In this document: piece by piece, positions 2,363 to 60,566 of the stretch
Layout: each line of letters starts with the position of its first letter
How positions within the stretch are numbered: position 1 is the stretch's first letter
Assembly: GCA_050945695.1 (NCBI GenBank)
Contig: JBMNTK010000002.1
Span: 3,395-67,394 of the forward strand
DNA length: 64,000 bases
Direction: 5' to 3'
DNA from: Anaerolineae bacterium
GTDB lineage: Bacteria > Chloroflexota > Anaerolineae > DRVO01
Position numbers and translations under genes: made by a program
Notes under the pieces: model-generated
Told to the model about the DNA's origin: nothing
Seen by the model: only the letters and a program-made list of their open reading frames with translations
The model's database searches: none

Positions 2363-3106
2363 CTAGACGTAGCTCTCAGGCACCAGCAGCTGGTCCAGCC
2401 GTGCCATGGCCGCTTCCAGGTGCCGGCGGCCCTCCCGCAGGGCGGGCATGGTGTGGCCAGGCAGGAACACCTCCACGTCCAAAGCGGCCAGGCGCCGGAC
2501 CGTGTCCAGGTGCGCCTGGAGGTCGCAGTCGGGAATGTTCTGCAGCAGGATGCGCCCCCCGGCGAAGACGTTATCACCGCCAAAGAGGTGTAGCTTGCCC
2601 TCGTGCCGGAAGGTGAAAGCGCAGTGGCCGGCGCAGTGACCAGGCGTCTCCAGCATGTGGAAGGTGATGTCTCCTACGGTCAGTGCCTCACCGTCGCTGA
2701 GGACGTGCTCCACCGGGCAAGCACGGAACACGTAGTCCGGCTCATACAGGCCGGCCTGCTTGGCGGCACCCAGGCTGATCATGTCCTCGTCCCCATTGCG
2801 CAGGGCCTGAGCTGTGTGGGCCGTGGTGACAACGGCGACGTCATGGCGGTCCCGGAGGTAAGCGGCCCCGCCGCTGTGGTCAGCGTGTTTGTGGGTAATC
2901 AGCAGATGGGTCAGTCGCTTGGGATCTAGCCCGTCAGCCCGTAGGTTGTCCAGGATGAGGTCGGTGCCTTCCTCGCCCACTCCGGCGTCCACCAGGACGA
3001 TGGGGCCGTTGCAGTCCACCGCGTAGACGGTGCAGTCACGTGGGTGGGATAGAAAGAAGCCGTTGGCGCCACTGCCCACCAGGTATACCCGATCGGTCAA
3101 GCGCAT
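2363..3106 (-). CDS. MBL-fold metallo-hydrolase
   Basis: HxHxDH motif 'ITHKHADHSGG'. ATG at 3104-3106 preceded by GGAGGCTCCC. Confidence 0.8.
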   Translation of the reverse strand: MRLTDRVYLVGSGANGFFLSHPRDCTVYAVDCNGPIVLVDAGVGEEGTDLILDNLRADGLDPKRLTHLLITHKHADHSGGAAYLRDRHDVAVVTTAHTAQALRNGDEDMISLGAAKQAGLYEPDYVFRACPVEHVLSDGEALTVGDITFHMLETPGHCAGHCAFTFRHEGKLHLFGGDNVFAGGRILLQNIPDCDLQAHLDTVRRLAALDVEVFLPGHTMPALREGRRHLEAAMARLDQLLVPESYV

Positions 3107-3170
3107 GGGAGCCTCCCCCGTGAATGGTGTGTGGGCATTATACAGAGGGGTCACCGCCGGAGGGGAGGCT

Positions 3171-3226
3171 TCACGCGAAGACGCCAAGCCGCTTGTCCTC
3201 CCGCCCTTGGCGTCTTCGCGTGAGCA
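3171..3226. repeat. REP-like hairpin (17-bp perfect inverted repeat cacgcgaagacgccaag / cttggcgtcttcgcgtg)
   Basis: Read directly. A second diverged copy lies at 3297-3370. Confidence 0.7.
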
Positions 3227-3296
3227 AACCCGCGTCCACGCGCGCCGGTAGGGGCGGACGACCCTGTCCGCCCTCCGGGTGTGCCCTCCTCGGCCG

Positions 3297-3370
3297 GAGC
3301 CTCACGCAAAGACGCGAAGACGCCAAGCCGCTTGTCCTTCTGCCCTCTGCGCCTTAGCGTCTTCGCGTGA
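3297..3370. repeat. Second copy of the REP-like hairpin element
   Basis: Shares cacgcgaagacgccaagccgcttgtcc with 3171-3226. Right arm is cttagcgtcttcgcgtg. Confidence 0.6.
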
Positions 3371-3530
3371 ACCCTCCCTTCTGGGACGACTTGGCGCCTC
3401 TAAGTATTCACGGTACAATAACGTCTACTGGTGCCTCGTTGCTGACTTCCAGGCGTGCCTGGTCGCCCTACCAGTACGGTCGACTCCGTCAGCCAGCCTC
3501 GCGCACAGAGCTCCATCCCGAGGGAATAGT

Positions 3531-4934
3531 GTGACGTCCGAAGCAGACGCAATCGCCCCAGCCCGGCCGGCACGCTCTGGCCGGTCCATTACCATTCCAC
3601 AGGACGATAAGTCCGTTGCCTCGGCGGTCAGGAAGCTGGCCTGGCCGATCATCCTGGAGAACCTCTTCCAGACCGCGCTGGGCACCACTAACATGGTGAT
3701 GGTGGCCCAGCTGGGAGCGGCCTCGGTGGCTGGCATCGGCACCGCCACCCAGCTGCTCATGATCCTGCAAGCGGGCTTTGGGGCGATCACTACCGGTACC
3801 ACTGTCCTCGTGGCCCGCGCTGTGGGTGCTGGGGACTCGCGCATGGCCAGCCGGGTGGCCAAGCAGTCGGTCTGCCTGGGGGCTCTGGTCTCGGTCTTCA
3901 TCGCCGTAGCCGGCAACTGGGGTTCCCATTGGGCTATATTGGCCCTGGGTACTGAACCCGAGGTAGCAGTGCTGGGCGGTGCCTACTTGCGGGTGGTCAC
4001 GGCCGCGGCGCTGGTGATGGTGACCATGTTCGTCGCCGGGGCTGCCCTGCGGGGCGCGGGGGACACGCGCACCCCGATGAAGGTGACCGGCCTCATCAAC
4101 CTGATCAACGTGGCCGTATCCTATGTCCTCATCTTCGGCCACTTTGGCTTCCCCGCCCTGGGCGTGGTGGGCTCCGCTTGGGGGGCGACGGTAGCCCGTA
4201 CGGTGGGGTCCATCATCCTGCTGGCCGTGCTCATCCGTGGCCGAGGCCCGGTGAGCATCCGGGGCCGGGAAGATTGGCGGCCGGACCTCCAGCTTGCCAC
4301 TCGGCTGTGGCGTCTGGGGTTCCCCACCATGGTTGAGCAGTTCCTGCTGCGCGGTGGTGCCCTGGCCTATGCCACCATCGCCATCAGCCTGGGCACAGTG
4401 GTCTATGCTACCCAGCGCATCACCTTCCAGGTGATCTCGTTCTCCTTCATGCCCGGCATGGGGTTTGCCCAGGCCGCCACCACCATGGTGGGCCAGTGCC
4501 TGGGCGCGGGCCGGGCCGATATGGCGGAGCGCTCCTCGTGGTATGCCGTGCGTCTGGCCGTGACCATCATGGTGATCGCTGGGATCACGGAGGCAGTGAT
4601 GGGCCGCCAGATCATGACCCTGTTCACCGACGACCCTGACATGATCCGGCTCGGCGCTCAGGCGCTCATGGTTATCGCCCTATCGGAGCCCTTCCAGGGG
4701 GTGGGGCAGGTGCTGGCGGGCAGCCTGCGGGGCGCCGGTGACACCCGGTTTCCCATGCTCGCCACCTTCACCGGCATTTGGCTCATCCGCCTGCCACTGG
4801 GCTATCTCTTCGGGGTGGTACTGGGCTGGGGCCTGCCCGGCATCTACATCTCCAACGTGCTGGACGCTGCCGGCCGGGCCACCGTGAATTACCTCCGGTA
4901 TCGCACCGGCCGCTGGCGCACCATCAAGGTCTGA
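3531..4934 (+). CDS. MATE family efflux transporter
   Basis: N-terminal 'AWPIILENLFQTALGTTNMVMVAQLG' and 12-TM organisation typical of MATE/NorM. Long ORF has no upstream ATG. In-frame GTG at ~3531 gives 467 aa. Confidence 0.75.
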   Translation: MTSEADAIAPARPARSGRSITIPQDDKSVASAVRKLAWPIILENLFQTALGTTNMVMVAQLGAASVAGIGTATQLLMILQAGFGAITTGTTVLVARAVGAGDSRMASRVAKQSVCLGALVSVFIAVAGNWGSHWAILALGTEPEVAVLGGAYLRVVTAAALVMVTMFVAGAALRGAGDTRTPMKVTGLINLINVAVSYVLIFGHFGFPALGVVGSAWGATVARTVGSIILLAVLIRGRGPVSIRGREDWRPDLQLATRLWRLGFPTMVEQFLLRGGALAYATIAISLGTVVYATQRITFQVISFSFMPGMGFAQAATTMVGQCLGAGRADMAERSSWYAVRLAVTIMVIAGITEAVMGRQIMTLFTDDPDMIRLGAQALMVIALSEPFQGVGQVLAGSLRGAGDTRFPMLATFTGIWLIRLPLGYLFGVVLGWGLPGIYISNVLDAAGRATVNYLRYRTGRWRTIKV

Positions 4935-5436: not shown

Positions 5437-5477
5437 GCGGTCCCACGCCATCGGGTAGAACCGGATGGCGTGGGACG
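5437..5477. terminator. Bidirectional terminator-like hairpin between convergent genes
   Basis: 11-bp stem cccacgccatc / gatggcgtggg with an 11-nt loop, between the NUDIX gene (+) and the DUF2892 gene (-). Confidence 0.45.
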
Positions 5478-9727: not shown

Positions 9728-10522
9728 CTAGGACGCCCGCTTGGTGAGCAGGTCGAGCAGGTCGTCGGAGGTCACCACTACCGTGCGGCCGGATTGACCG
9801 TTCCCGGGCCGGTAGACGGTGACCATCTCATAGGGCGGCTCCAGCCAGAAGGGGCCGATCTCGTGCCGGCGCTCGATGCCCCGCCGGGCCGCCTCCTTGA
9901 TCCGGGCCCGGGCCACTTCGGGGCTAAGGTGAACGGCAGCGCCATTGAAGACTCGGGCCTCCTCCAGGGTGAGGCCGCTGGCGGAGCCTCGCTTGAGCCC
10001 CTCTTTCACCGCCGCCGTCTCGATGCCGGGCACCAGGGCCTTGGCCTCTTCGCAGACTGCTGCATCTCCGGTGACGGTGACCGTGGGCACGCCGAAGTAG
10101 GCGGCAAAGAGCATGTTCTTGCCCAGCTCGCCCACGCTGACCCCGTTGATGGTAAGGTTCTCGACGATGGAGGAGCCGGTGTGGCTGAGGTGGCCGCCGT
10201 CGGTGTTGGCCTTAGCGTGCTGGCTGATGTTCATGGCCACGTCGAACTCGCCTGAGCAGCCGAAGGGGTAGCCCAGGGGACGGCCGGCAAGCAGCCGTGC
10301 CGCCGGGTGGAGTAGGCGGATGTCAATGGTGCCCGATCCGTGGCCGTCCACGACCAGGATGTCGGTGGCCCCCGCCTCCAGGCAGCCCTCGATAGCGGCA
10401 TTGACCTCGGCGGTGACGAGTTCTCGGGCCACCTGGTAGTAGCGGCTGTCGGGGCCGCCGTAGTCGGCGTGGCTGATTACACCCGCCGCCCCTTCCTGAT
10501 CGGTCATCATGTAGACGCGCAT
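9728..10522 (-). CDS. Peptidase M55 D-aminopeptidase (DppA-like)
   Basis: 'MRVYMMTDQEGAAGV' matches the DppA N-terminal motif M+hY+s.D.EG..G. Chosen ATG at 10520-10522. Confidence 0.7.
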   Translation of the reverse strand: MRVYMMTDQEGAAGVISHADYGGPDSRYYQVARELVTAEVNAAIEGCLEAGATDILVVDGHGSGTIDIRLLHPAARLLAGRPLGYPFGCSGEFDVAMNISQHAKANTDGGHLSHTGSSIVENLTINGVSVGELGKNMLFAAYFGVPTVTVTGDAAVCEEAKALVPGIETAAVKEGLKRGSASGLTLEEARVFNGAAVHLSPEVARARIKEAARRGIERRHEIGPFWLEPPYEMVTVYRPGNGQSGRTVVVTSDDLLDLLTKRAS

Positions 10523-10535
10523 GGCCACCCCCTGA

Positions 10536-10620
10536 GACGTGATGCGTGACGAGTGACCCGTGACACGAGGTGCGTTGGATGCACCGGTCACGCATCACGC
10601 ATCACGGGTCACGCATACGG
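10536..10620. repeat. Heptamer-array palindrome (GYGTGAY x4 / RTCACRC x4-5 around a short hairpin core)
   Basis: Left arm cgtgat|gcgtgac|gagtgac|ccgtgac, right arm ggtcacg|catcacg|catcacg|ggtcacg|catacg. Central ggtgcgttggatgcacc hairpin. Confidence 0.7.
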
Positions 10621-10767
10621 CCAGCATAGCTGTAGCCGTACGGCTCATCAATGCCCGTTCCAGTGCGGGGGCGCCATTGTGGCCGTCAGCGCTGACGGAT
10701 ATAGTGGACTGACTTCGCTAGTGGGGAGATGGGTGCCCGCCAGGCCCGCAACCGGGGAGGACGCATC

Positions 10768-11556
10768 ATGACCGCGCAGGAACTGAACGCTTACCTCAAC
10801 TCGCTCGTCAGTGAGCTACCCGAGAAGTCGGTTGACCGGGTCATCTATGGCGATCCTGGCGCGGCCGTGAAGGGCATAGCGGTGGCCTGGATGCCCTACA
10901 GGCAGACGGTGGTCGCCGCTGCCCAGGCCGGGGCCAACGTCATGGTGGTACACGAGCCTACCTTCTACCAGCACTGGGACCTGGACGGCGAGCCGGCGGA
11001 TCAGGCTCAGGTGGAAGCCAAGAAGCGCCTGCTGGAGGAGCACGGCATCACCGTGATCCGCTGTCACGACGTGTGGGACGCCATGCCCGACATCGGCATC
11101 CCGTTCGCCTGGGGGGAGTTCCTGGGGCTGGGAGCGCCGGAGACCGCCGTTCGCCACTACAACATCTACCGGATCGCCCCCCGCCCGGCCGGGGAAGTGG
11201 CCGAGATGATCGCCGCCCGCACGTCCTCACTGGGCCAGAGCACGGTAGGGTTCTACGGGGACCCCGAGCGCCCGGTTGGCACTGTTGGCCTGGGCACCGG
11301 CTGTATCAGCGATCCCTTCACCATCTATGGGCTGGGGGCTGACCTGGCCATCTCGGTTGATGACGTGGTGCGATCCTGGATTGCAGGAGAGTGGTGCCAG
11401 GACACGGGCAAGCCCCTGGTGGTGGTCAACCACTGTGTGTCCGAGGAGCCAGGGATGGCCTCGCTGGCCCGCTTCCTGAGCGAGAAGCTGCCGGGCATCC
11501 CGGTGACCCACATCCGCCAGGGGCTCACCTACGCCGCTATCGGCGCGGCCGGGTAG
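10768..11556 (+). CDS. Nif3-like dinuclear metal centre protein (YqfO/GCH1-type 2 family)
   Basis: Motifs 'VVHEPTFY', 'RCHDVWD' and C-terminal 'NHCVSEEPGM' typical of NIF3. ATG at 10768 after GGAGGACGC. Confidence 0.7.
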   Translation: MTAQELNAYLNSLVSELPEKSVDRVIYGDPGAAVKGIAVAWMPYRQTVVAAAQAGANVMVVHEPTFYQHWDLDGEPADQAQVEAKKRLLEEHGITVIRCHDVWDAMPDIGIPFAWGEFLGLGAPETAVRHYNIYRIAPRPAGEVAEMIAARTSSLGQSTVGFYGDPERPVGTVGLGTGCISDPFTIYGLGADLAISVDDVVRSWIAGEWCQDTGKPLVVVNHCVSEEPGMASLARFLSEKLPGIPVTHIRQGLTYAAIGAAG

Positions 11557-13717: not shown

Positions 13718-13772
13718 GCAGATGAGGAGTGCGCGCTACTAGGCGCACCAGTGTGCACCTAGTAGCACGCAC
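13718..13772. repeat. Long near-perfect palindrome (25-bp arms, 5-nt loop)
   Basis: gaggagtgcgcgctactaggcgcac-cagtg-gtgcacctagtagcacgcactcctc with 2 mismatches. Confidence 0.6.
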
Positions 13773-13916
13773 TCCTCAATGGTGCATGGCCGTGGGTCAC
13801 GTTTCACGCTTCACGCGTCACCTCTGCGCGCGGACTCCCCAATGGGCCACCCGAATCCCCCGATCCCCCTAGCCCCAAGCGAGACCGACCTGTAGAATGT
13901 CAACACTGGAGCGGAT

Positions 13917-23084: not shown

Positions 23085-23529
23085 GGCCACAGCGGAGCTG
23101 TGGCTGCCGCCATGCCTAGCCCTGAGGGCCTACAGCCGAGGGTGGACAGCGTTCGATCACTCTACAGGGTGATCGAATGCTGTGGGTCCTCTCGGCGGGC
23201 AGCCAGCGGCCTACTGCGACTTGTTTGCCTTTTCCATCAGCCGGGAAGTAGTGGACCTAGGAAGTCTGTAGCTGCTGTTCACTTGCACTGCGAAGTGCTA
23301 TCATCCCGCCGCCGTTTCCGCAAGCAGTATTGGGATAGGGAGGATACTAGCGCCGGGCTGGAGGTGGCGCCGTGGTTCGTTGTGAACCCCCACCTGGGAG
23401 GGGCTTTCCAAGGAAGGGGCGGCGAAGAAGACCCTCGTCATCGTGCCCTGAGGCCGAGGGAAGGTCTGGGACGACGCTCCCGACCGGGGACGGGTGGTCG
23501 CGGGTAAGCCATACTGAGGAGGAGCCAAC

Positions 23530-24290
23530 ATGGTAGCATCGCCGGTGGTGGACTTGCTCGTCCGACGTGGTGAGGAGCTTCTGGCCCAGCCCAGGTCAGA
23601 GTCGCCGCTCTCAGACATCCCCCAGGTCAACGCGCTGGTGTCAGACATCGAGAACCAGCCTCACGCCTTCGTGCTGGGCTGCCTGATGCAGCGGCAGGTC
23701 CCTTTCGAGAAGGCCTGGCGCGTGCCACATGAGATCCGTGCCCGCCCAGGCAGCTTTGACTTCCCGCGGCTACTAGAACTCACGCCCCAAGCAGTTCAGG
23801 ACCTGTTCCGTAGACCTCCCGCACTGCACCGGTCAACGAAGCGATGGCCGAAGTCTTCTACCGGGGTGTGCACCAGATCGCTGACGAATACGCTGGGGAT
23901 GCCTCGCGCATATGGGCAGGAAGCCCCAGCTGCGATACGGTGCGGCGAAGGTTTCTGAGCGTTCACGGTGCCGGGCCGAAGATCGCATCAATGGCCGTGA
24001 ACATCCTGGTGCGCGACCTGAAGGTGCCCCTCACTGACCGGCGATCCCTCGACGTCGCCCTCGATGTCCACACCCGCCGCGTCCTCAAGCGAACCGGCCT
24101 CGTGCCTGCAGGAGCTGAGGACTCCGAGATGCTCCAGGCTGCCCGCCTGATCGGCCCTGACTACCCAGGGCTGCTTGACCTGCCGCTGTGGGAGATCGGG
24201 CGCGAGACTTGCCACGAGGTGGGGCCTGGTTGCCGGCGCTGCCGCCTGGGCAAGCACTGTCCGAGCGCAGGAAGACGTCGAGGAGGCTAG
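23530..24290 (+). pseudogene. HhH-GPD (endonuclease III-like) DNA glycosylase split by a frameshift near 23825-23845
   Basis: ORF 23530-23958 encodes the N-terminal helical part. ORF 23844-24290, in a different frame, encodes HhH 'VHGAGPKIA', catalytic 'LDVHTRRV..RTGL' and a C-x6-C-x2-C-x5-C [4Fe-4S] loop. Confidence 0.5.
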
Positions 24291-24293
24291 GGG

Positions 24294-25194
24294 GGTGTTC
24301 ACGATCGACGTCCCCCGGGCAAGGCAGGTAGCGGCCGATCTGCTGGCTGCCTATGGGGAGCAGGGGATCTTCGGCAGAAAGGATATGCCGGAGGACCTCT
24401 TGCCGGAGGGGGTGAGGCCGGGCTCGGAGGAGCACCGCCGCTTCGTCACCCTCACGGTGGCCATAGACTACATGCGAAACGCCGACGAGCTTTGGACGGC
24501 GGGCCGACGTACCTACGCGGATCCGCAGACACGCTGCCTCTACGACCCCCACGTGGTGGCCGACACGGGCCTGGCGAAGGTCATCGCCGACATGCAGCGC
24601 TATGGGCTGTCTAGAAAGCCCCAGCAGGATGCCACCACCTGGGCCACCGTCTGCACTACGCTGGCCACACGCTTTGGGGGCCGGGTGGGCGTGCTCCTGG
24701 AGACTGCCGGGACGGACGCGCCCAAGCTTCTCGAGCTGGTGCGCAAGCGCTACGGGGGCGGATTCCCCTTCCTCAAGGGCGCCAAGATTGGTCCCCTGTG
24801 GGTGAGGATGCTGCACGACAACTGCGGGGTCCCGCTCCAGCGCCTGGGCGACATAGCTCTGCCGGTGGACGTGCACACTGCTCAGGCCACGCTGCAGTTA
24901 GGCTGCGTGCGTCCGCTACGGGACAGAGGGCCGATGTCGGCGCTCACGGAGGCGGTGCAGCGGGTGTGGCGCGAGGCGCTGAAGGACAGCCCAGAGGGCG
25001 TCTATCCCCTGAAGCTGGATGAGCCGCTGTGGACGCTCAGTCGCCTGGGTTGCAGAGCCACGCAGACCTGGCCGTGTGGGACGCGTGGGCAGTGCCCGGT
25101 AGCGGCGTATTGCTTGCCGGAGAGGGTATGGCTGCAGGTGGCTGGGAACCCTGGATCCAGCAGGTCGGAGTGGCGTGTGACCACAGACAGGTAG
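24294..25194 (+). CDS. Second HhH-GPD-like putative DNA glycosylase with C-terminal Cys4 cluster
   Basis: 'FLKGAKIGPLWVRML' (HhH-like) and 'ALPVDVHTAQATLQLG' (PVDTHV-type Asp motif). C-terminal C-x7-C-x5-C-x5-C. GTG start after GAGGAGG. Confidence 0.45.
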
Positions 25195-25269
25195 CTAGGA
25201 AGCGAGAACCGCCGGCGTGACACCGGCGGTTCCCCTACCTTGGCTGCTCTGGGTTCAGCGGGCTCCGGC

Positions 25270-25839
25270 CTAGGGCCGACTCAGAATGTGGAGTGTGCTG
25301 TCCTCTTTCTCGATAGCCTCACGTGCCTCTGGTATCAACCGATAGCGCCAGATGCCGCCTACCTTGTCAGACTCCATCATGTGACCGGTGCCTGTCCTAC
25401 CCGGCCGGCCGGCGGTGTCGACTCCGGGAGTGGCCTCGATCCGCCTGCCGAGTGCCCCGAGGATACCCGACAGCTGCGAGTCGCTCAGGCCGAGCTTCTG
25501 GACGAGGTCACGGCGTAAGAGACCGGCATCACCGGCCTCGTACAGTGAAGCGAGGAGCTGCTTGTAGTTCTCTCCCAGCTCTCGTCTATTGAGCACATCC
25601 TGAAGGAATCTCACTAGAGCTGTGCTCCTGTCTGCACCCTTCTCCGCGACCTCATCAACCGGGTGTTGCTCTGCCTCACCACTCCGGGGCTGCCCCCGAA
25701 TCGCAAGAAACTGAGCGTACTCCTCCGGCGTGCCCTCGAACTCAACAACCTTCATGGCAACCTCCCTGGACTCCATTGCAGGTTCCTCCTGCATCCGACA
25801 AGTAACCTCCCGTGCTGCTGCTTCCGCATTACTCGGCAC
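25270..25839 (-). CDS. Hypothetical acidic cytoplasmic protein (low-GC island)
   Basis: 189-aa ORF. 3' part is high GC, 5' part low GC. No recognisable domain; possible wHTH-like segment 'LLRRDLVQKLGLSDSQLSGILGALGRR'. Confidence 0.35.
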   Translation of the reverse strand: MPSNAEAAAREVTCRMQEEPAMESREVAMKVVEFEGTPEEYAQFLAIRGQPRSGEAEQHPVDEVAEKGADRSTALVRFLQDVLNRRELGENYKQLLASLYEAGDAGLLRRDLVQKLGLSDSQLSGILGALGRRIEATPGVDTAGRPGRTGTGHMMESDKVGGIWRYRLIPEAREAIEKEDSTLHILSRP

Positions 25840-26258
25840 CTCCTCAACCTGACATCGCGGTGGCCCTTCGCCCCACTGCTGAAGACAGTTTAGATCATCG
25901 GTACGCGGTTGTCAAGAGGTTCTCACGAGTGCTTTAGCACCAAACGAGGCGCTGAGCAACCGGGGCTCTGCGGGAGGCAGGCCAGAACGGGGCTGAAGTC
26001 CGAGTCGGATGGGAGCCGGATGCGAACCTAGCCCAGGAGGGCAACTGCGTCCACTCTCCGGGCACGGTTCATGCGCGCATACAGAGGTCTAGGCACTAGT
26101 GCGCCTATGCGAGGAGGCGCCTGCGTGATCTCACACAGAAACGTAGGTGCCAGAGCCACTGAGGGCAGTGATTCCAATCACTCCAGAGCATTCGGCTGGC
26201 TAGGGATTTACTCAGCATCGCCCATCGCTGGCTCATATGGAGCTGGTAGGAGATCGGT

Positions 26259-26654
26259 GTGGTCGACCCGGTGGAGGGCTACAAGTTCATCACCTCTCGT
26301 ATCGCAAGCTTCGAGAACAGAATGGGCGAGAGCTTCAACTCCTACATACAGCTATCTTCAGCTGTAGTGGGAGGATACGTTTGGACTAGAACACAACTAC
26401 ATGACTCCCAACTGCTCGGCGTCATCCATGTTCTGGCTCCTGTCTTACTGGTGCTGATTGGGACCAGCACGGTGCTCTTGGTTGTCTTCGATGTTCGCAG
26501 TTGGTGCGGGTACAGAAAGGCCGAGTCGAACCTAACGGGGGGTGCGGCCCCTAACCCTCGATTCCCTGGTTCTATGCTCCAGGAATTGGTGATGATCACG
26601 TTCGTGGTGGTTACCACCGCCCTTGGTGCCTCCTACCTATGGCTGCAATCGTAG
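26259..26654 (+). CDS. Hypothetical small membrane protein (2 TM) in low-GC island
   Basis: 131 aa, with two clear hydrophobic helices. Local GC ~55% versus ~68% background. Confidence 0.3.
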   Translation: MVDPVEGYKFITSRIASFENRMGESFNSYIQLSSAVVGGYVWTRTQLHDSQLLGVIHVLAPVLLVLIGTSTVLLVVFDVRSWCGYRKAESNLTGGAAPNPRFPGSMLQELVMITFVVVTTALGASYLWLQS

Positions 26655-26875
26655 GGAAGAAGGCGCACAGTCGGCCCCGACAGAGGAAGGTCGAGCGGAC
26701 AAGCTAGAGGGCCGGCGGGACAGACGGTTGCGACTCGGCACGCGCTCATGCAGGCGCCTTCTCACAAGAGAGCGCTGGTGCCTAACCCCTGTACGAGCGT
26801 GTGCCGTGTCATAGCCGTCAGTAGCCAAATGTGCGGTGAGGACAAGATGACCTGCACTACAAGCCTCCTCCCCCC

Positions 26876-27649
26876 TCACGCCTCCCGCGTCAGGTCGAAC
26901 CCCTTGATCTGCCGGATGATCCGCACGCACTCGCGCACCGTCACTTCCACGATCCTGGCCCCCTTCTCCGGCGTGGCCAGGTGGGGCCTGCCCACGTACC
27001 CCTTGGGCACCTGGAGGATCCAGTCCACCTTGTACTGCACCTCGGGGATGGACTTCTCGAAGTAGGGCCCCTCCCCCTCGGGCAGAGGCTCCAGCCGGTC
27101 CAGGTGCACCAGCTCCGGCCGGAAGTAGGCCACATTAGACGTCTCGCCCTCGCCCCCGTGCCCCTCCCGCACCGGTGACTCCATGGCATCAGCCGCCAGG
27201 GGGCGGAACTGGCCGATGTTGAGGGCAAAGACGCTGTAGTCCTCCACCCGCTCGTGCTTGAGGGTGTGCAGCAGGAAGTCGAAGCCGGCGTTCACGCCCC
27301 CGTGAGCGACCAGCAGGACGATCTTCCTGAACCCGTTGCGGGCCGCCTCCGAGCACAGCTCGCGCAGGATGTTCACCACCAGGGCCGGTGACATGGCGAT
27401 GGTGCCGGGATAGGCCTTCATCTGGTCATTCATGTTCAGGTACAGCGTGGGCAGGATGATCACCGGCTCCTGCTCGGCGATGAGCTCCGCTGCTCCCTCG
27501 GCCCGGATAGCATCGGTGCCGGTGGGCAGGTGCGGCCCGTGCATCTCCACGCAGCCCATGGGCAGGACGGCCACATCCGTCTCCTGGGCCAGCTCAGCCA
27601 CCTCTGGCCCGGGCATCTCGTGCCACTTGTAGGTGCGACGCTTGGTCAC
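26876..27649 (-). CDS. Creatininase-family amidohydrolase
   Basis: 'VAVLPMGCVEMHGPHLPTGTD' is the creatinine amidohydrolase / MftE-family signature. Confidence 0.8.
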   Translation of the reverse strand: MTKRRTYKWHEMPGPEVAELAQETDVAVLPMGCVEMHGPHLPTGTDAIRAEGAAELIAEQEPVIILPTLYLNMNDQMKAYPGTIAMSPALVVNILRELCSEAARNGFRKIVLLVAHGGVNAGFDFLLHTLKHERVEDYSVFALNIGQFRPLAADAMESPVREGHGGEGETSNVAYFRPELVHLDRLEPLPEGEGPYFEKSIPEVQYKVDWILQVPKGYVGRPHLATPEKGARIVEVTVRECVRIIRQIKGFDLTREA

Positions 27650-27765
27650 CGATCCGCCTCCTCTGGTGGGTCAAGACGCCTTTGCCTCACGCCACGCCAC
27701 GAGGACGCGGCGCTTCCCTTCCTGTACTCAGCGCCTTTGCGTCTCTGCGTGAGGCTCTCCGTTCT

Positions 27766-28842
27766 CTACGCCGGGTTGAGCACCCCTTCCGATCGAGGCG
27801 CCCTCGCCACGACGGCGGCGATCACCCCAATCAGCAGCAAGTCCAGGACCACCAAGATCGCCAGTTCCGGAGCGACGGTAGCGAAGGTGCCGCCCTCCTG
27901 GGTGATCTCGATCAGCGGCCCGATCATGTAGTAGGTGGGGAAGACACGGCCGATCCACTGGGGGATCTCCGGGAACAGGTATACGATCACCGGCGCATAC
28001 AGGAGTAGGCCGGTCCCCTTGATCACGGTGAACAGGGTGTTGATGTCTTTGACGAAGGCGCCGAGCAGGATGCCGACGGCGGCGGCCATGATCGCTCCCA
28101 GCACCAGGGTGACAAATAGGAGCAAGGGCTCGCCGCCCCACGCCCGATTCAGGACGAGGGTGACGGAGACCATGACGATGCTGAGGATCACCCCCAGCAG
28201 CCCCTTGGCCAGGAACACCTCACCAAGCGAAGCCGGCGTGGTGGTAAGCGCCCGAAGGGTCCGCTTCTGCTTCTCTTCCACCAACAGGGCTGCCGGCACC
28301 ACGCCTCCCCCCAGAAACATTGCCATCATCAAGATGAAGGGCAGCAACCGACTCTCCCAGGGTACCGTTGCCCCCTCGCCCAGCGTGGTGGAGACGATCT
28401 CCACCGGCGCCTCTTGACCGGCCAGCTCTCGGATCAGCGTCGCTAGTGTCGAGCCCGTCACGGCCCGGTTACGGAGCGTGCTCTCGCCCCACAGGTAAGC
28501 GGTAAGGGTGGCGGTGTCACCACGCCTGATCTGCTCATCGAAGTCGGCCGGGAGGACGATGCCCATGTCTACCGCCCCAGCGGCGGTGGCTGACCGAAGC
28601 TCGGCGGCGGAAGCGTAGACCTTCACGTCCAGCGACTCCAGGGCCCGAGCCCGGGTCACCAGCTCCGAAGCCCCCTCGTCAGCCAGGCCCAGGCGGGCTC
28701 TGCCCGAGAACACCGTGCCGAAGAGCAGCGACACCACGACGGTGAGCACGATCGGCACTACTACTGCGAAGATGAACATGACGTTGCGCCATCCCTGGCT
28801 GATCTCCTTGCCCAGGAGCACGCCGATTCGCCGCAAGCTCAT
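27766..28842 (-). CDS. ABC-2 family exporter permease with extracellular domain
   Basis: N-terminal TM, ~180-aa extracytoplasmic segment, then a 5-TM ABC-2 domain. ATG overlaps the upstream stop (ATGA). Confidence 0.7.
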   Translation of the reverse strand: MSLRRIGVLLGKEISQGWRNVMFIFAVVVPIVLTVVVSLLFGTVFSGRARLGLADEGASELVTRARALESLDVKVYASAAELRSATAAGAVDMGIVLPADFDEQIRRGDTATLTAYLWGESTLRNRAVTGSTLATLIRELAGQEAPVEIVSTTLGEGATVPWESRLLPFILMMAMFLGGGVVPAALLVEEKQKRTLRALTTTPASLGEVFLAKGLLGVILSIVMVSVTLVLNRAWGGEPLLLFVTLVLGAIMAAAVGILLGAFVKDINTLFTVIKGTGLLLYAPVIVYLFPEIPQWIGRVFPTYYMIGPLIEITQEGGTFATVAPELAILVVLDLLLIGVIAAVVARAPRSEGVLNPA

Positions 28843-32140: not shown

Positions 32141-32262
32141 GCCACAGAGGCACAGAGACACGGAGACGGATAGGTAAGCAACAGAGTGGCGATGTGGCTT
32201 GAGGTACGTGCGTATGGGGCCTCCATCACTCCCCATCCCCTCCGTGCCTCTGTGTCTCTGTA
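32141..32262. repeat. Long inverted repeat between convergent genes
   Basis: acagaggcacagagacacggag ... ctccgtgcctctgtgtctctgtag, ~22-bp arms separated by ~70 nt. Confidence 0.5.
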
Positions 32263-45326: not shown

Positions 45327-47125
45327 GCATGCGCGGGGGATTCATGGGCCGGATGCGGGGCCAGGAGGAGAGCTACCGTCTCTCTCAGCTGGACCGGAGG
45401 GCCCTGGGGCTGTTGTGGGGGTACCTGCGTCCCTACCGTGCGAAGCTGCTGCTGGTCCTGGTGGCCCTGGCCGTTCTCACCGGTACCGGCTTGCTGGGCC
45501 CCTATCTGACCAAGGTAGCCATAGACTCCTACATCGCCGTGGGGGACTTGGCCGGGCTGAGCCTCATTTCCTTGCTCTACCTGCTGGTCGGAGGCCTTCA
45601 GTGGGGGGCCAGCTACTGGCAAGGCTACCTCTCCAGCCAGGTGGGCCAGGGCATCATCCACGATCTGCGATCTGACCTCTTCGATCGAGTGCTGCGCCAG
45701 TCAGTGCGCTTCCACCGCGAGGAGCAGGTCGGCCAGGTGATGTCCCGCCTGACTAACGACGTCAATACCCTAGCCGACGCGGCCACCAGCACGTTTCTGG
45801 GCCTGATCACCGACGTGCTGAGCCTAGGTGGCGTCGTGGTCGTCTTGCTGCTGCTCAACTGGCGCCTGGCCCTGGTGACGTTCGTGGTCATGCCCGTGGT
45901 CGTGCTGACCATGGCCCTTATGGGCAGGCGGATGCGGCACGCCTACCGGGATGTGCAGCAGGAACTGGCTGCCGTCAGCGCCGGGGTGGAGCAGGGCGTA
46001 TCGGGCATGCGGGTAACCCAGTCGCTCTCCGCGGAGTCCTACAGCGTGGAGCAGTTTGAGGACCTCAGCCTGCGCAACCTCCGCGCTAACCTGCGGGCCA
46101 GCCTGCTCACCGCTGCCCTGTCCCCTACCATGAGCATCACCGGCAGCCTGGGCACAGCCCTGGTGCTGGGCTACGGCGGGGTGCAGGTGGCGACGGGAGC
46201 CATCACCGTCGGCGTGCTCATGGCTGCCCTGGGTTACGTGCGTCGTTTCTTCGGCCCCTTGCGGGAACTCAGTCTGGTGTACAACACCTTGCAGGGAGCT
46301 GCCGCCTCTTTGGATCGGGTCTCTGACTACCTCGATCGGCCAGTGGAGGTGGAAGAACCGGAACATCCCCAGCGTCCGGCGGGCGGGTTTGTCGGCCGGG
46401 TGGATGTGGATCACGTCAGCTTCAGCTATGGCCGGGAGAAGGTCCTAGAGGACGTTTCCCTGACCATCGAGCCGGGTGAGGTGGCGGCGCTGGTGGGGCC
46501 GACGGGTGCCGGGAAGAGCACCCTCGTGAACCTTGTCACTCGCCTGTACGACGTGCAAGAGGGACGGGTGGCGTTGGACGGTGTGGATATCCGAGATATC
46601 GCCTTCGCTGACTTGCGGCGGCTCATAGCCGTGGTGCCGCAGGACACCTTCCTCTTCGACGGCAGCATTGGTGACAATATACGCTACGCCCGACGCGAGG
46701 CCACCGACGCCGAGGTCGAGGCGGCTGCCCGGCAGGCCCAGGCGCATGAGTTCATCTCCCGGCTGCCCCAGGGATATGAGACTCAGGTCGGTGAGGGTGG
46801 GGTGCGGCTCTCCGGAGGCCAGAAGCAACTGGTCGCCCTGGCCCGAGCCATGCTGGCCGACCCCACCATCCTCATCCTGGACGAGGCTACCTCTCACGTG
46901 GACGCCCACACCGAGGGTCTGATCCAGGCGGGCATGGAGGAGCTGCTGCGCGGGCGCACGGCTCTCATCATCGCCCACCGCTTCAGCACCCTGAAACGGG
47001 CGGATCGGATCTACGTCATGGAGGCGGGGCGAGTAGTCGCCCAGGGCACCCATGAGCAACTGCTGGAGATTAGCCCCACGTACCGCGACTTGGCTCAGAA
47101 GCAGTGGGTGGGGAGTGATACGTGA
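45323..47125 (+). CDS. ABC exporter, fused TMD-NBD (partner)
   Basis: ATG overlapping the upstream TGA, after GGAGGTG. Walker A 'GPTGAGKST', signature 'LSGGQKQLVALARAM'. Confidence 0.85.
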   Translation: MSMRGGFMGRMRGQEESYRLSQLDRRALGLLWGYLRPYRAKLLLVLVALAVLTGTGLLGPYLTKVAIDSYIAVGDLAGLSLISLLYLLVGGLQWGASYWQGYLSSQVGQGIIHDLRSDLFDRVLRQSVRFHREEQVGQVMSRLTNDVNTLADAATSTFLGLITDVLSLGGVVVVLLLLNWRLALVTFVVMPVVVLTMALMGRRMRHAYRDVQQELAAVSAGVEQGVSGMRVTQSLSAESYSVEQFEDLSLRNLRANLRASLLTAALSPTMSITGSLGTALVLGYGGVQVATGAITVGVLMAALGYVRRFFGPLRELSLVYNTLQGAAASLDRVSDYLDRPVEVEEPEHPQRPAGGFVGRVDVDHVSFSYGREKVLEDVSLTIEPGEVAALVGPTGAGKSTLVNLVTRLYDVQEGRVALDGVDIRDIAFADLRRLIAVVPQDTFLFDGSIGDNIRYARREATDAEVEAAARQAQAHEFISRLPQGYETQVGEGGVRLSGGQKQLVALARAMLADPTILILDEATSHVDAHTEGLIQAGMEELLRGRTALIIAHRFSTLKRADRIYVMEAGRVVAQGTHEQLLEISPTYRDLAQKQWVGSDT

Positions 47126-47172
47126 TACGTGACGCGTGAACCGGTCACGAGTCACGCATCACGTATCACGCG
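47117..47172. repeat. Perfectly symmetric heptamer-array palindrome (4x GTGAYRC + 4x complement)
   Basis: gtgatac|gtgatac|gtgacgc|gtgaacc|ggtcacg|agtcacg|catcacg|tatcacg. It overlaps the last codons and stop of the ABC exporter gene. Confidence 0.75.
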
Positions 47173-47242
47173 TTACCTTCTCGGATCTGCCGCGATATAG
47201 TTATTAGAGGGTGCACCCGCCGTGGCGCCGAGAGAGGTAGCG

Positions 47243-47818
47243 ATGCCGAGCCTGTCACTGGCCCATCAACTGACCGAAGCCTCCGAGCAGGAGGACGCCT
47301 CGCTGGTGCGGGCCGCCCAGCGCGACCGGGCTGCCTTTGCCCCTCTCTACGACCGCTACGTGACCCGGGTCTACCGCTACCTCTACTCCCGCATCGGGGA
47401 CGCCCACGCGGCCGAGGATGCTACCGCCCAGGTCTTCACCGAGGCCCTGGCCGGCCTGGGCGGCTACCGGGAGCAGGGCCGCTTCGCCCCCTGGCTCTTT
47501 AGCATCGCCCGCCGCCGGGCCGCCGACTACCACCGCCGCCGCGACCACGCCCCCCTGGAGGCGGCCCTGGCCCAGCCCGGCGAGCAAGACCCCTTGGCCA
47601 AGCTGGTGCGCGAGGAGGAGCTGCGGCGCCTGGCCGAGCTGGTGGGAGCGTTGGACGAAGAGGCGCGTGAGCTTCTGCGGCTGCGCTTTGCCGCCGGGCT
47701 CACCTATGGCGAGATCGGCGGGATGCTGGGCCGGAGCGAGGACGCCGTCAAGATGGCCGTGCACCGGCTGCTGCGCCGCCTGCAGCGATCTTGGGAGTTG
47801 ACCGATGGCCCCCAGTGA
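47243..47818 (+). CDS. ECF-type RNA polymerase sigma factor
   Basis: Sigma-70 region 2 ('YDRYVTRVYRYLYSRIG...AEDATAQVF') and region 4 ('LTYGEIGGMLGRSEDAVKMAVHR'). Confidence 0.8.
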   Translation: MPSLSLAHQLTEASEQEDASLVRAAQRDRAAFAPLYDRYVTRVYRYLYSRIGDAHAAEDATAQVFTEALAGLGGYREQGRFAPWLFSIARRRAADYHRRRDHAPLEAALAQPGEQDPLAKLVREEELRRLAELVGALDEEARELLRLRFAAGLTYGEIGGMLGRSEDAVKMAVHRLLRRLQRSWELTDGPQ

Positions 47819-58310: not shown

Positions 58311-58443
58311 GCAACCCCCCGTCTAGACGTAGCGGACTCGAGCACCCCGCGGCCCCCCTGCCTAGGAGCCTGGCTTCCGAGGCCCTAGGGCAGCGGCTAC
58401 CGGCCATCGCCGGCGACCGCTGCCCTGAGGCTTTGGCCAAAGG

Positions 58444-60273: not shown

Positions 60274-60529
60274 GACCCTCCCTCCTAGGTTGGATATGGA
60301 GCAGCGGTTAGTTCAGCTAATAGCAGCTCTGGACTTGGCGGGCTGCCTCCCTCGCTCCGACGCCACTCAGCAGCGAAGACGAGCCGGTCCTATTCACTTC
60401 GCCAGTGGGTGGGGCCGAAGACCACAAAGACCCGGTAGATGGCGGTATGTTTGACGTGCACGAACATGATAGAAAGCGCGGGACGAATAGTCAACAGTTG
60501 CAGTTAGGTTTTGCTCCCCCATCACCGAA

Positions 60530-60566
60530 CCAGGCTGGCAGCGAACTGTTCGCTGCCAGCCTGGTC
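60530..60566. terminator. Strong GC hairpin downstream of URO-D paralog 3
   Basis: ccaggctggcagcgaac-tg-ttcgctgccagcctgg, a ~16-bp perfect stem. Confidence 0.5.

What the first reader, a model, noticed from the sequence alone, without database searches (positions are those of the whole stretch)
10536..10620. Family of intergenic palindromes built from tandem heptamers (GTGAYRC / ..TCACG)
Three loci carry arrays of 4-5 heptamers with a TCACG core: 10536-10620, 47117-47172 and 13790-13830. The first two are organised as 4 direct units followed by 4 inverted units. At 47117-47172 the symmetry is exact with no spacer, and the array overlaps the stop codon of an ABC exporter gene immediately upstream of the ECF sigma promoter. 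All copies are intergenic, in divergent-promoter or operon-junction positions. The heptad periodicity is unusual for REP elements. It would suit an iteron-like protein-binding array or a structured attenuator/terminator.
Basis: seen in the sequence. Interest (0 to 1): 0.55.

Follow-up and report, generated by a model that had tools for sequence, protein, structure and literature searches.

The report
Stop-codon-hugging hairpins built from heptamers
The flagged sequences are real: they are long hairpin-forming repeats whose two arms are strings of 7-base units each carrying a TGA stop codon. They belong to a large class of gene-end palindromic repeats found in many bacterial phyla, which I could not find described in the searchable literature. 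They most resemble REP elements rather than protein-binding iterons.

Summary
Heptad arrays with a GTGA/TCAC core lie at 10539-10612 (4+4 units), 47115-47169 (4+4) and 13797-13821 (4 units, one arm only), against about 0.02-0.3 expected by chance.

The claim of exact symmetry at the second locus is wrong. It has 2 mismatches in 25 pairs and a 5-nt centre.

The window comes from an Anaerolineae (Chloroflexota) metagenome-assembled genome. Pattern scans hit the 120-locus limit in both genomes and metagenomes. The same architecture occurs in Acidobacteriota, Chloroflexota, Bacteroidota and other phyla, with lineage-specific unit sequences.

- Position: of 237 gene ends facing such a hairpin, 79% have their stop codon within -18 to +12 nt of the array. 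48% use an in-phase TGA of the array or of the degenerate unit just before it.
- Context: 75% of hairpins lie between co-directional genes, leaving about 20 nt of other spacer.
- Arms: they co-vary within a locus. There is no sense/antisense G·U asymmetry and rarely a U-tract. No neighbouring gene family is enriched, and no transposase was seen.
- Relatives show presence/absence and unit-number variation. Those lacking an array carry plain hairpins in the same spacers.

Best reading: REP/REPIN-like gene-end hairpin elements whose stems grow in 7-nt steps. The GTGA type provides stops in all three frames on both strands. An iteron or operator reading is not supported. This is a new variant of a known kind.

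The parts
10539..10566 (.). Locus 1, left arm: four direct heptads (GTGATGC GTGACGA GTGACCC GTGACAC). TGA falls in all three + strand frames.
10567..10584 (.). Locus 1, centre, with its own small stem GGTGC(10569-73)/GCACC(10581-85).
10585..10612 (.). Locus 1, right arm: four inverted heptads (TCAC at 10588/95/602/609). TGA falls in all three - strand frames.
10520..10522 (-). Start codon of the Peptidase_M55 gene (9728-10522, minus strand). The array begins 16 nt upstream of it. In the 88%-identical orthologue (L241) a 6+6 heptad hairpin sits at the same place and shares its first 30 nt.
47115..47139 (.). Locus 2, left arm: GTGATAC GTGATAC GTGACGC GTGA.
47123..47125 (+). TGA stop of ABC exporter ORF 45095-47125. 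It is the TGA of heptad unit 2. The orthologue in L368 ends ...KQWVGPGT* against ...KQWVGSDT* here.
47140..47144 (.). Locus 2, 5-nt centre (ACCGG).
47145..47169 (.). Locus 2, right arm: TCAC GAGTCAC GCATCAC GTATCAC. It is 92% complementary to the left arm.
47170..47199 (+). Promoter-like boxes conserved upstream of the ECF sigma gene: GCGTTACCTT (47170-79) and CGATATA (47193-99). They are present in L367, L368 and L369, which lack the array. The array ends exactly at the first box.
   Evidence: promoter function is inferred, and the consensus scan found no sigma-70 match
13797..13821 (.). Locus 3: solitary arm of four TCAC heptads (TCACGTT TCACGCT TCACGCG TCAC). It has no partner arm and no hairpin, and is probably a half-element remnant.

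Best explanation
**What it is**
The three loci are copies (two complete, one half) of a dispersed, REP/REPIN-like palindromic repeat of an Anaerolineae genome. Each complete copy is an inverted pair of 4-unit heptad arrays, with unit (C)GTGAYRC. It can form a hairpin of about 25-30 bp as RNA or as single-stranded DNA.

**Where the class sits (shown)**
- It lies directly at the stop codon of the upstream gene, often supplying that stop.
- It usually lies in a short junction between co-directional genes.

**Why the stop codons matter (shown)**
- Each unit holds TGA, and 7 is not a multiple of 3. Three units therefore put a stop in every reading frame.
- The inverted arm does the same on the other strand.
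- The element can therefore touch or overlap a gene's 3' end from either side without extending the protein.

**Origin and maintenance (inferred)**
- The stems grow and shrink by 7-nt slippage.
- The two arms are kept complementary by a DNA-level process, namely arm-to-arm templated correction of a quasi-palindrome.
- Whole elements are occasionally copied to new gene ends.

**Effect (inferred, by analogy with REPs)**
- The transcript carries a very stable hairpin right after the stop codon. It would act as a 3'-end barrier or partial terminator and as an insulator between neighbouring units.
- At 47115-47169 it fills the whole space between the ABC exporter stop and the conserved promoter-like boxes of the ECF sigma gene.
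- At 10539-10612 it now lies just upstream of the M55 peptidase start, after a rearrangement removed the upstream gene seen in the relative.
For: - **Real and non-random:**
- **Source lineage:** an Anaerolineae metagenome-assembled genome.
- **Same architecture in many phyla, at the row limit:** (pattern expected about 0.004 times by my arithmetic).
- **Position:**
  - Co-directional 161, convergent 30, divergent 23. The background is 447/150/150 (chi-square p = 1.6e-4).
  - 188 of 237 facing gene ends have the stop within -18..+12 nt.
  - 113 of 237 use a TGA in phase with the array, counting the degenerate unit just upstream. TGA use is 70% against a 52% background.
  - Medians are 3 nt from stop to array, 15 nt from array to next start, and 20 nt of residual spacer.
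- **All-frame TGA on both strands in the window arrays:**
- **Arms co-vary within loci:** 76% against 50% when arms are swapped between loci.
- **Dynamics:**
  - The orthologous M55 site has 6+6 units in L241 and none in L245 or L243.
  - The ABC-sigma junction of L368 has no array.
  - L314 and L350 differ in unit number at what looks like one locus from the shared flanks.
  - Similar loops occur at different loci and in different genomes.
  - L253 carries two arrays with similar loops and different flanks.
  - Hairpins are nested in the loops of other hairpins.
- **Same place as plain hairpins:** relatives lacking the array have a plain hairpin in the same spacer. Other gene-end hairpins of the window also lack U-tracts.
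- **REP precedent:** REPs within 15 nt of a stop codon affect translation, and REPINs are inverted REP pairs (PMC12306157; PMC3116915 and PMC3337134).
Against: - **No function shown.** There is no transcript or 3'-end data.
- **No sense-strand bias in hairpin quality.** Sense is better in 77 cases and antisense in 81, and G·U pairs number 242 against 289. Selection on the RNA is therefore not detectable, and the element may be neutral or selfish.
- **A barrier or terminator inside tight operon junctions would be polar.** Convergent gaps are not enriched.
- **Two of the three window copies lie between divergent genes,** which is the minority context for the class.
- **No REP-associated transposase, end tag or target duplication was found**.
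- **The survey has limits.** The gene calls behind the statistics come from a crude GC3-based caller.
Confidence: 0.55

Rival explanations
1. The arrays are a purely mutational or selfish by-product. They are heptanucleotide simple-sequence arrays that expand by polymerase slippage and are mirrored by template switching. They have no host function and persist only where they do least harm, just after stop codons.
For: - There is no sense/antisense asymmetry in hairpin quality.
- Period 7 dominates all tandem repeats in carrier loci: 802 arrays against 94 or fewer for any other period. Many unrelated unit sequences occur.
- Unit number is polymorphic, and arrays are present or absent among relatives.
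- No gene class is enriched.
- Heptanucleotide repeats were reported as the commonest long simple repeats in prokaryotes (Mrazek 2007, as summarised in PMC4679880).
Against: - The first 30 nt of the array are identical between two genomes whose M55 proteins are only 88% identical, while the flanks are unalignable.
- Placement at the stop codon is extremely tight even for units without stops.
- The arrays occupy the position taken by plain hairpins in relatives.
- Neutral junk would be expected more often in long divergent spacers, yet these are depleted.
Confidence: 0.25
2. The arrays are binding sites for a dedicated protein. This could be an iteron- or operator-like array on DNA. It could instead be single-stranded RNA sites for an oligomeric RNA-binding protein controlling translation of the downstream gene, as proposed for TAACTGA repeats.
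For: - The core is regular, at 7-nt spacing.
- The arrays lie close to the next start codon, at a median of 15 nt.
- Published proposals exist for TAACTGA repeats (PMC4679880) and for Nostoc heptamer repeats (bioRxiv 10.1101/2022.06.06.494920).
- The array abuts the promoter-like boxes of the ECF sigma gene.
Against: - Most arrays are paired into hairpins: 403 of 522 GTGA-type arrays have an inverted partner. The units would therefore not be single-stranded.
- Many unrelated unit sequences coexist in one genome.
- The anchor is the upstream stop codon, not the promoter or start.
- Neighbouring genes show no common function.
- A 7-bp spacing puts successive sites on different faces of B-DNA (established geometry).
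Confidence: 0.08
3. The arrays are classical intrinsic (Rho-independent) terminators or attenuators, selected at the RNA level for the upstream gene.
For: - A stable GC-rich hairpin lies right after a stop codon.
- About 30% of copies in Acidobacteriota have T-rich tails.
- Locus 2 lies between an operon end and the next promoter-like boxes.
Against: - The consensus scan finds no terminator at any of the three loci.
- Only 4 of 67 copies of this unit type have 6 or more T in the 12 nt after the stem, and T-richness is higher on the antisense side.
- Most copies sit in junctions with about 20 nt of other spacer and no room for a new promoter.
- There is no sense-strand G·U bias.
- Convergent gaps are not enriched.
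Confidence: 0.1
4. The arrays are non-autonomous transposable elements (MITE or REPIN in the strict sense) moved in trans by a RAYT/IS200-type or other transposase that recognises the hairpin.
For: - The repeats are multi-copy and dispersed, with whole-element similarity including loops at unrelated loci.
- L253 carries two arrays with similar loops and different flanks.
- Hairpins are inserted in the loops of other hairpins.
- REPIN-like geometry is described in the literature (PMC3116915).
Against: - No transposase was found among about 50 window ORFs or among 290 genes next to hairpins.
- There is no unpaired GTAG/CGTC end tag as defined for REP superfamilies (PMC3733652; sequence).
- By eye, no target-site duplication flanks the two window hairpins.
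- Loops are mostly unrelated between copies.
- One recognising enzyme would not explain dozens of unit sequences per genome.
Confidence: 0.15

Closest known systems
REP elements and REPINs (repetitive extragenic palindromes; inverted REP doublets that form hairpins)
   Same: - Both are short, multi-copy, lineage-specific palindromes confined to intergenic DNA.
- Both concentrate at gene 3' ends and between co-transcribed genes.
- Many copies lie within 15 nt of the stop codon.
- The inverted-pair geometry gives a long hairpin.
- Both are present or absent between relatives.
(PMC3116915, PMC3337134, PMC12306157.)
   Different: - The arms here are tandem arrays of 7-nt units, not a single 20-40-nt palindrome.
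- There is no unpaired GTAG/CGTC tag.
- No RAYT was seen.
- Unit number varies by slippage.
- Many unit sequences coexist in one genome.
- The GTGA type carries stop codons in all frames and often supplies the gene's stop.
TAACTGA heptamer direct repeats of Beggiatoaceae, Cyanobacteria and Bacteroidetes (MacGregor 2015, PMC4679880)
   Same: - Both are intergenic tandem heptamers carrying stop codons, so they can overlap a coding end by only a few units.
- Both lie within a few nt of start codons.
- Neither shows a common function among neighbouring genes.
- Both have a patchy distribution across phyla.
- The reverse complement, AGTTATC, differs by one base from the AGTGATC units seen in metagenomic contigs.
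   Different: TAACTGA sets are direct repeats: 169 direct sets and one indirect set. They are predicted not to fold on their own, and they are read as ribosome- or protein-binding sites. Here nearly every array has an inverted partner, and the anchor is the upstream stop codon.
Cyanobacterial STRR heptamers and long simple-sequence repeats of 5-11 nt (Mrazek 2007)
   Same: Both are heptanucleotide tandem arrays in non-coding DNA, with several unit sequences per genome. A period of 7 is the favoured slippage step (for Mrazek; STRR is from my own knowledge: Mazel et al. 1990).
   Different: Those are described as simple tandem arrays. They are not described as paired inverted arrays forming hairpins that abut stop codons.
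Intrinsic terminators and hairpins without a U-tract in high-GC bacteria
   Same: Both are stable GC-rich stem-loops just downstream of stop codons. The window's ordinary gene-end hairpins also lack U-tracts.
   Different: - Stems here are 25-45 bp, far longer than terminator stems.
- They have a repeat-unit construction.
- They are symmetrical on both strands.
- They mostly lie inside tight operon junctions.

Membership tests
REP / REPIN | High-copy, lineage-specific imperfect palindrome confined to intergenic DNA | tested here: met
   There are three copies in 64 kb, all intergenic or overlapping only the last codons. Both collection scans returned the maximum of 120 loci.
REP / REPIN | Preference for gene 3' ends and for co-directional or convergent junctions | tested here: inconclusive
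   The preference for 3' ends and co-directional junctions is met: 79% of stops lie within -18..+12 nt, and 75% of contexts are co-directional against a 60% background. Convergent gaps are not enriched (14% against 20%). Two of the three window copies lie between divergent genes.
REP / REPIN | Two REP units in inverted orientation around a spacer, forming a hairpin (REPIN) | tested here: met
   Inverted arms of 25-30 nt surround 5-24 nt, with hairpins of -44 to -51 kcal/mol. However, each arm is a heptad array rather than itself a small palindrome.
REP / REPIN | Unpaired GTAG or CGTC tetranucleotide tag at one end (PMC3733652) | tested here: not met
   The flanks are GGGGA|GTGATAC..GTATCAC|GCGTT and GAGAC|GTGATGC..GGTCAC|GCATA. 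Neither carries a terminal unpaired tag.
REP / REPIN | Cognate single-copy RAYT (Y1 transposase) flanked by the repeats | not testable with these tools
   Only 64 kb of the genome is available. No transposase was found among about 50 window ORFs or 290 hairpin-adjacent genes.
TAACTGA-type heptamer direct repeats | Tandem direct heptamers, unstructured, immediately upstream of start codons in forward orientation | tested here: not met
   The arrays are paired into hairpins. They are closer to the upstream stop (median 3 nt) than to the next start (median 15 nt).
Intrinsic terminator | Short GC-rich stem followed by a U-tract on the transcribed strand | tested here: not met
   The consensus scan found no terminator-like sites at the three loci. 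T-rich tails occur in 4 of 67 copies of this unit type.
Iteron / operator array | Repeats bound by one specific protein, located at an origin or promoter, with a conserved sequence within the genome | tested here: inconclusive
   Binding is not testable. Position at gene ends, many unit sequences per genome and unrelated neighbouring genes all argue against it.
Known structured RNA family (Rfam 15) | Match to a curated covariance model at its gathering score | tested here: not met
   There were no matches in the window or in 11 carrier loci.

The most novel reading that the evidence does not exclude
Heptad-arm hairpins may be a distinct, undescribed class of bacterial genome element spanning several phyla. 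They would be gene-end palindromes whose stems are assembled from 7-nt tandem units of essentially arbitrary sequence, with the period conserved rather than the sequence. They would be kept symmetrical by a DNA-level arm-to-arm copying process. In the TGA-bearing types they would work as a cassette giving stops in every frame on both strands plus a hairpin, which lets them colonise or replace gene ends and operon junctions. That would imply a specific 7-nt copying mechanism in these lineages: either a polymerase property or a dedicated enzyme.
Probability: 0.3. Interest if true: 0.7.

Novelty: new variant of a known kind. Interest (0 to 1): 0.55.

Why it matters
If the class is as general as the capped scans suggest, a large share of the intergenic DNA in abundant soil and freshwater lineages is made of these elements. 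The lineages include Pyrinomonadaceae and Blastocatellia, Anaerolineae and Saprospiraceae.

- **Annotation:** the arrays supply many real stop codons and alter C-termini.
- **Assembly:** they are repeat- and hairpin-rich.
- **Operon biology:** each places a very stable hairpin between a stop codon and the next ribosome-binding site.
- **Repeat evolution:** they give a concrete case for asking why 7 nt is the favoured repeat step in prokaryotes and how palindromes stay symmetrical.
- **This window:** they mark the boundary between an ABC exporter operon and an ECF sigma promoter-like region. They also mark a site that sits at a synteny change next to the M55 peptidase gene.

Tried and rejected
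1. **Exact-product lookup of the ABC exporter:** it was not on record. The source was identified later through the anti-sigma-like protein.
2. **Rfam:** no family matched in the window or in carrier loci.
3. **Consensus promoter/terminator scans at the three loci:** nothing found. I therefore do not claim my hand-read TTGATG-N17-TATGCT upstream of the M55 array as a promoter.
4. **Sense-strand G·U excess as a sign of RNA-level selection:** absent.
5. **Sense-strand U-tract:** absent, and slightly stronger on the antisense side.
6. **Shared CCAAC loop motif** (suggested by the window and L241): not enriched, 5 loops against 4 expected.
7. **Preferential placement after solute-binding-protein genes,** as for malE-REP (suggested by L241): rejected. 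No family exceeds 4 of 145 upstream genes, and the same holds downstream.
8. **Transposase or RAYT in the window:** none found.
9. **Full-text search for the array sequences:** no papers. Keyword searches found only the TAACTGA, Nostoc heptamer, G-quadruplex heptamer and REP literature.
10. **First gene caller:** it scored GC3+GC1-2*GC2 and picked antisense ORFs over Pfam-verified genes. I replaced it with 2*GC3-GC1-GC2.
11. **Stop-codon content of non-GTGA heptads:** 62% carry a stop on at least one strand. This is only modestly above a rough random expectation, so the all-frame-stop property is a feature of this unit type and not of the whole class.

Full report
**1. The observation**

Reading the three loci and chaining core motifs at exact 7-nt spacing gives the following:
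- Locus 1: four GTGA units at 10539-10563, then four inverted TCAC units at 10588-10612. The 24 nt between them contain a small stem of their own, GGTGC..GCACC.
- Locus 2: four GTGA units at 47115-47139 and four TCAC units at 47145-47169, with 5 nt between them.
- Locus 3: four TCAC units at 13797-13821, with no partner arm.

A three-unit pattern matches 9 times against 0.02 expected. A looser one matches 16 times against 0.28. No shuffle out of 100 reaches either count.

Loci 1 and 2 fold into long hairpins. Locus 1 gives -50.9 kcal/mol on the minus strand and -46.2 on the plus strand (z about -3). Locus 2 gives -46.0 and -43.7 kcal/mol (z -6.3 and -7.5). Locus 3 does not fold.

The arms are 25 nt and 92% complementary, with a 5-nt centre.

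**2. Gene context in the window**

Pfam identifies the flanking genes:
- Locus 1 lies between a Peptidase_M55 gene (9728-10522, minus strand) and a NIF3-family gene (10729-11556, plus strand). The array begins 16 nt upstream of the M55 ATG.
- Locus 3 lies between a DUF3604 gene (minus strand) and a gene with a weak MFS_1 match below Pfam's cut-off (plus strand).
- Locus 2 follows an ABC exporter (45095-47125) and precedes an ECF sigma gene (47222-47818). The exporter's stop codon is the TGA of heptad unit 2.

**3. Source organism**

The closest M55 homologues are from Anaerolineae MAGs. A 762-aa product of the window is 100% identical to a protein of an "Anaerolineae bacterium" MAG, on a 67.7-kb contig.

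**4. The same architecture elsewhere**

I scanned one genome per species with a palindromic pattern: three GTGAY-spaced units, a gap of 5-35 nt, then three inverted units. By my arithmetic this is expected about 0.004 times by chance. It stopped at the 120-locus limit.

Carriers include many Pyrinomonadaceae and Blastocatellia (Acidobacteriota), and Anaerolineae, Ca. Aquidulcis and Oscillochloris (Chloroflexota). They also include Saprospiraceae and Bacteroidales, Verrucomicrobiota, Burkholderiales, Nitrospirales, Armatimonadetes and Gemmatimonadaceae.

All show 3-5 direct units, a loop of 5-35 nt, and 3-5 inverted units. The variable unit positions are lineage-specific:
- AGTGAYRAG in Acidobacteriota.
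- GGTGAYTR in Saprospiraceae.
- CGTGAYRC in Chloroflexota, which is the window's type.

A metagenome scan restricted to the CGTGA type also hit the limit. So did a one-arm scan of viral contigs.

**5. Position relative to genes**

I used a crude GC3-based gene caller, checked against Pfam-verified window genes. Over 214 hairpins with both flanks called:
- 161 lie between co-directional genes, 30 between convergent genes and 23 between divergent genes.
- The background of gaps of at least 50 nt is 447/150/150 (chi-square p = 1.6e-4).

Of 237 gene ends that face a hairpin:
- 188 (79%) have the stop codon between -18 and +12 nt of the first GTGA.
- 113 (48%) use a TGA in phase with the array, at offsets +3, -4, -11 or -18. 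The +3 cases use the degenerate unit just upstream of the first GTGA.
- TGA is the stop in 70%, against 52% for all called genes.

In co-directional junctions the medians are 3 nt from stop to array and 15 nt from array to the next start. Only 20 nt of non-element spacer remain. Removing the element would leave an ordinary operon-type junction.

**6. Why heptads with TGA matter**

Each unit holds one TGA, and 7 mod 3 is 1. Three successive units therefore place a stop in all three frames. The inverted arm does the same on the other strand. I verified this for all window arrays.

MacGregor noted the analogous limit for TAACTGA repeats.

This property belongs to the GTGA type and not to the whole class:
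- In 1.6 Mb of carrier loci, period 7 dominates tandem repeats, with 802 arrays against 94 or fewer for any other period.
- 280 of the period-7 arrays lack GTGA/TCAC, and 124 of these are paired with an inverted partner.
- The other unit sequences are unrelated to each other (GGATTGC, GGTAAAT, AGTTCAA, AGGGATG, AGAGGTC, AGTCCCA and others). Several can occur within one 8-kb locus.
- These other hairpins keep the same placement: 41 co-directional, 12 convergent and 5 divergent, with 47 of 65 stops within -25..+12 nt. This holds even when the unit has no stop codon (20 of 32).

What is conserved across the class is therefore the 7-nt period, the inverted pairing and the stop-proximal position. 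The sequence is not conserved.

**7. RNA level or DNA level?**

Within a locus the two arms agree at the variable unit positions 76% of the time. When arms are swapped between loci the figure is 50% (maximum 53% in 200 shuffles). Symmetry is therefore actively kept.

In 161 co-directional cases the sense-strand hairpin is no better than the antisense one. Sense is better in 77 cases and antisense in 81, and G·U pairs number 242 against 289. Selection on the sense RNA should tolerate G·U and purge A·C, and that signature is absent. This points to a DNA-level symmetrising process, or to elements young enough that mismatches are unfiltered.

T-rich tails are rare in the CGTGA type: 4 of 67 copies have at least 6 T in the 12 nt after the stem. 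T-richness is slightly higher on the antisense side. The consensus scan finds no terminator or sigma-70 promoter at the three loci. No Rfam family matches.

**8. Evolutionary dynamics**

*M55 locus.*
- The 88%-identical orthologue (L241, L242) has a 6+6 hairpin at the same place (-72 kcal/mol).
- Its first 30 nt are identical to the window's array. The loop and both flanks differ.
- There the array follows the TAA stop of an upstream, co-directional 685-aa gene. That gene's counterpart in L245 is an SBP_bac_5 solute-binding protein. The array in L241 precedes the M55 ATG by 20 nt.
- The 83% (L245) and 80% (L243) orthologues have no array.
- In the window the upstream gene has been replaced by a divergent NIF3 gene, with homology starting at the array edge.

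*ABC-sigma locus.*
- L368 keeps the ABC-to-sigma synteny, with a spacer of about 270 nt and no array.
- Its exporter ends ...KQWVGPGT* (CCGGGGACGTAG). The window's ends ...KQWVGSDT* (AGTGATACGTGA), so the array overlies the last three codons.
- L367 and L369 have a different upstream gene and no array.
- All four share GCGTTACCTT, a 13-nt spacer, then CGATATA upstream of the sigma gene. In the window the array ends exactly at the first box.

*Plain hairpins in the same place.*
- L368 and L245 carry a plain 9-10-bp hairpin in the same spacer. It lies about 20 nt after the stop in L368 and about 30 nt after it in L245.
- The window's other gene-end hairpins (58377-58436, 60529-60565, 5440-5476) are equally stable and also lack U-tracts.

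*Signs of copying and slippage.*
- L314 and L350 share their flanks and so look like one locus. They differ by two units.
- L253 and L144 each carry two copies with similar loops but different flanks.
- Pyrinomonadaceae loops recur at unrelated loci and in different genomes.
- Some hairpins sit inside the loop of another hairpin.

**9. Neighbouring genes**

I scanned 145 genes that end at a hairpin and 145 that start after one. They fall into more than 210 Pfam families each, and no family exceeds 4 members. There are no transposases, and solute-binding proteins are not enriched. About 50 window ORFs include no transposase.

This argues against a regulon or a specific regulator. It gives no support to a strict MITE/RAYT model, although a single-copy transposase elsewhere in the genome cannot be excluded.

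**10. Interpretation**

The best-supported reading is a REP/REPIN-like gene-end palindromic repeat with heptad-built arms.

*Shown:*
- The architecture, the placement, the all-frame stops, arm co-variation, turnover between relatives and the breadth of distribution.

*Inferred:*
- Growth by 7-nt slippage with arm-to-arm templated correction.
- Occasional copying to new gene ends.
- An RNA-level effect as a post-stop hairpin (3'-end barrier, partial terminator or insulator). This is by analogy with REPs, for which hairpins within 15 nt of a stop codon were reported to stall ribosomes (PMC12306157).

The main rival is that the arrays are functionless products of slippage and template switching, tolerated only at gene ends. 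The protein-binding (iteron, operator or RNA-binding protein) reading and the classical-terminator reading are each contradicted by several tests above.

**11. Novelty**

- Keyword and sequence searches of the paper library found TAACTGA direct repeats, Nostoc heptamer repeats, a G-quadruplex heptamer and the REP/REPIN literature.
- They found no description of paired heptad arrays at stop codons.
- The library is incomplete, so I rate this a new variant of a known kind and not a new category.

**Caveats**
- The gene calls are heuristic.
- Collection scans were capped and biased towards GTGA.
- No expression data exist.
- Only three copies lie in the window, and two of them are in the minority (divergent) context.

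Noticed in passing
window 32143-32167 and 32239-32261: A hairpin whose arms are tandem 8-nt units: CACAGAGG CACAGAGA CACGGAGA, paired with CCTCCGTG CCTCTGTG TCTCTG. It has a loop of about 70 nt and folds at -63.6 kcal/mol (z -3.9). It fills a convergent gap and abuts both stop codons: TAA at 32136-38, and the stop of the minus-strand amidohydrolase gene at 32264. The design is the same as the heptad hairpins, but with a period of 8 and no stop codons in the unit.
   Followed up: partly
window 3170-3224 and 3302-3370: Two similar copies of another palindromic repeat with 8-nt units (ACGCNAAG): TCACGCGAAGACGCCAAGCCGCTTGTCCT...CTTGGCGTCTTCGCGTGA. They lie in the divergent region between a metallo-beta-lactamase-fold gene (2363-3187, minus strand) and a MatE gene (3279-4934, plus strand).
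   Followed up: no
window 13723-13778: A 26-nt-arm palindrome next to the solitary heptad arm. On the minus strand every mismatch becomes a G·U pair, giving an uninterrupted 26-bp stem (-56.3 kcal/mol, z -10, against -48.1 on the plus strand). It lies about 150 nt upstream of the DUF3604 gene start, so an RNA read on the minus strand is possible.
   Followed up: partly
window 47170-47199; L367, L368, L369 upstream of the sigma gene: A conserved pair of boxes, GCGTTACCTT-N13-CGATATA(G/A), lies upstream of the ECF sigma gene in four Anaerolineae genomes, followed by a conserved GGCGCCGAGAG(G/A)GG before the ATG. It is probably the autoregulated ECF promoter and leader. A similar GATATAGT lies at 10698 upstream of the NIF3 gene.
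   Followed up: partly
window 58377-58436, 60529-60565, 5440-5476: These are ordinary, non-repetitive but very stable hairpins 8-26 nt after stop codons. None has a U-tract. One sits between an SBP_bac_5 gene and its permease genes, the classical REP position. Gene-end hairpins without U-tracts look like the norm in this genome.
   Followed up: partly
L142 (2-151), L147 (3390-3532), L218 (2544-): Nested heptad hairpins: a hairpin of one unit sequence sits inside the loop of a hairpin of another. This suggests that loops are preferred sites for new elements.
   Followed up: no
window 23500-28500: A stretch of slightly lower GC (0.64) holds five ORFs with no Pfam match (23530-23958, 24175-25194, 25270-25839, 26259-26654, 27935-28417) around a creatininase-family gene.
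   Followed up: no
viral contigs L001-L120 (for example L019, L029, L078, L112): GTGAY heptad arrays, many in the same direct-loop-inverted layout and right next to start or stop codons, are also common in IMG/VR contigs. The scan stopped at 120 loci. They therefore occur in phage or prophage DNA, or in host fragments binned as viral.
   Followed up: partly
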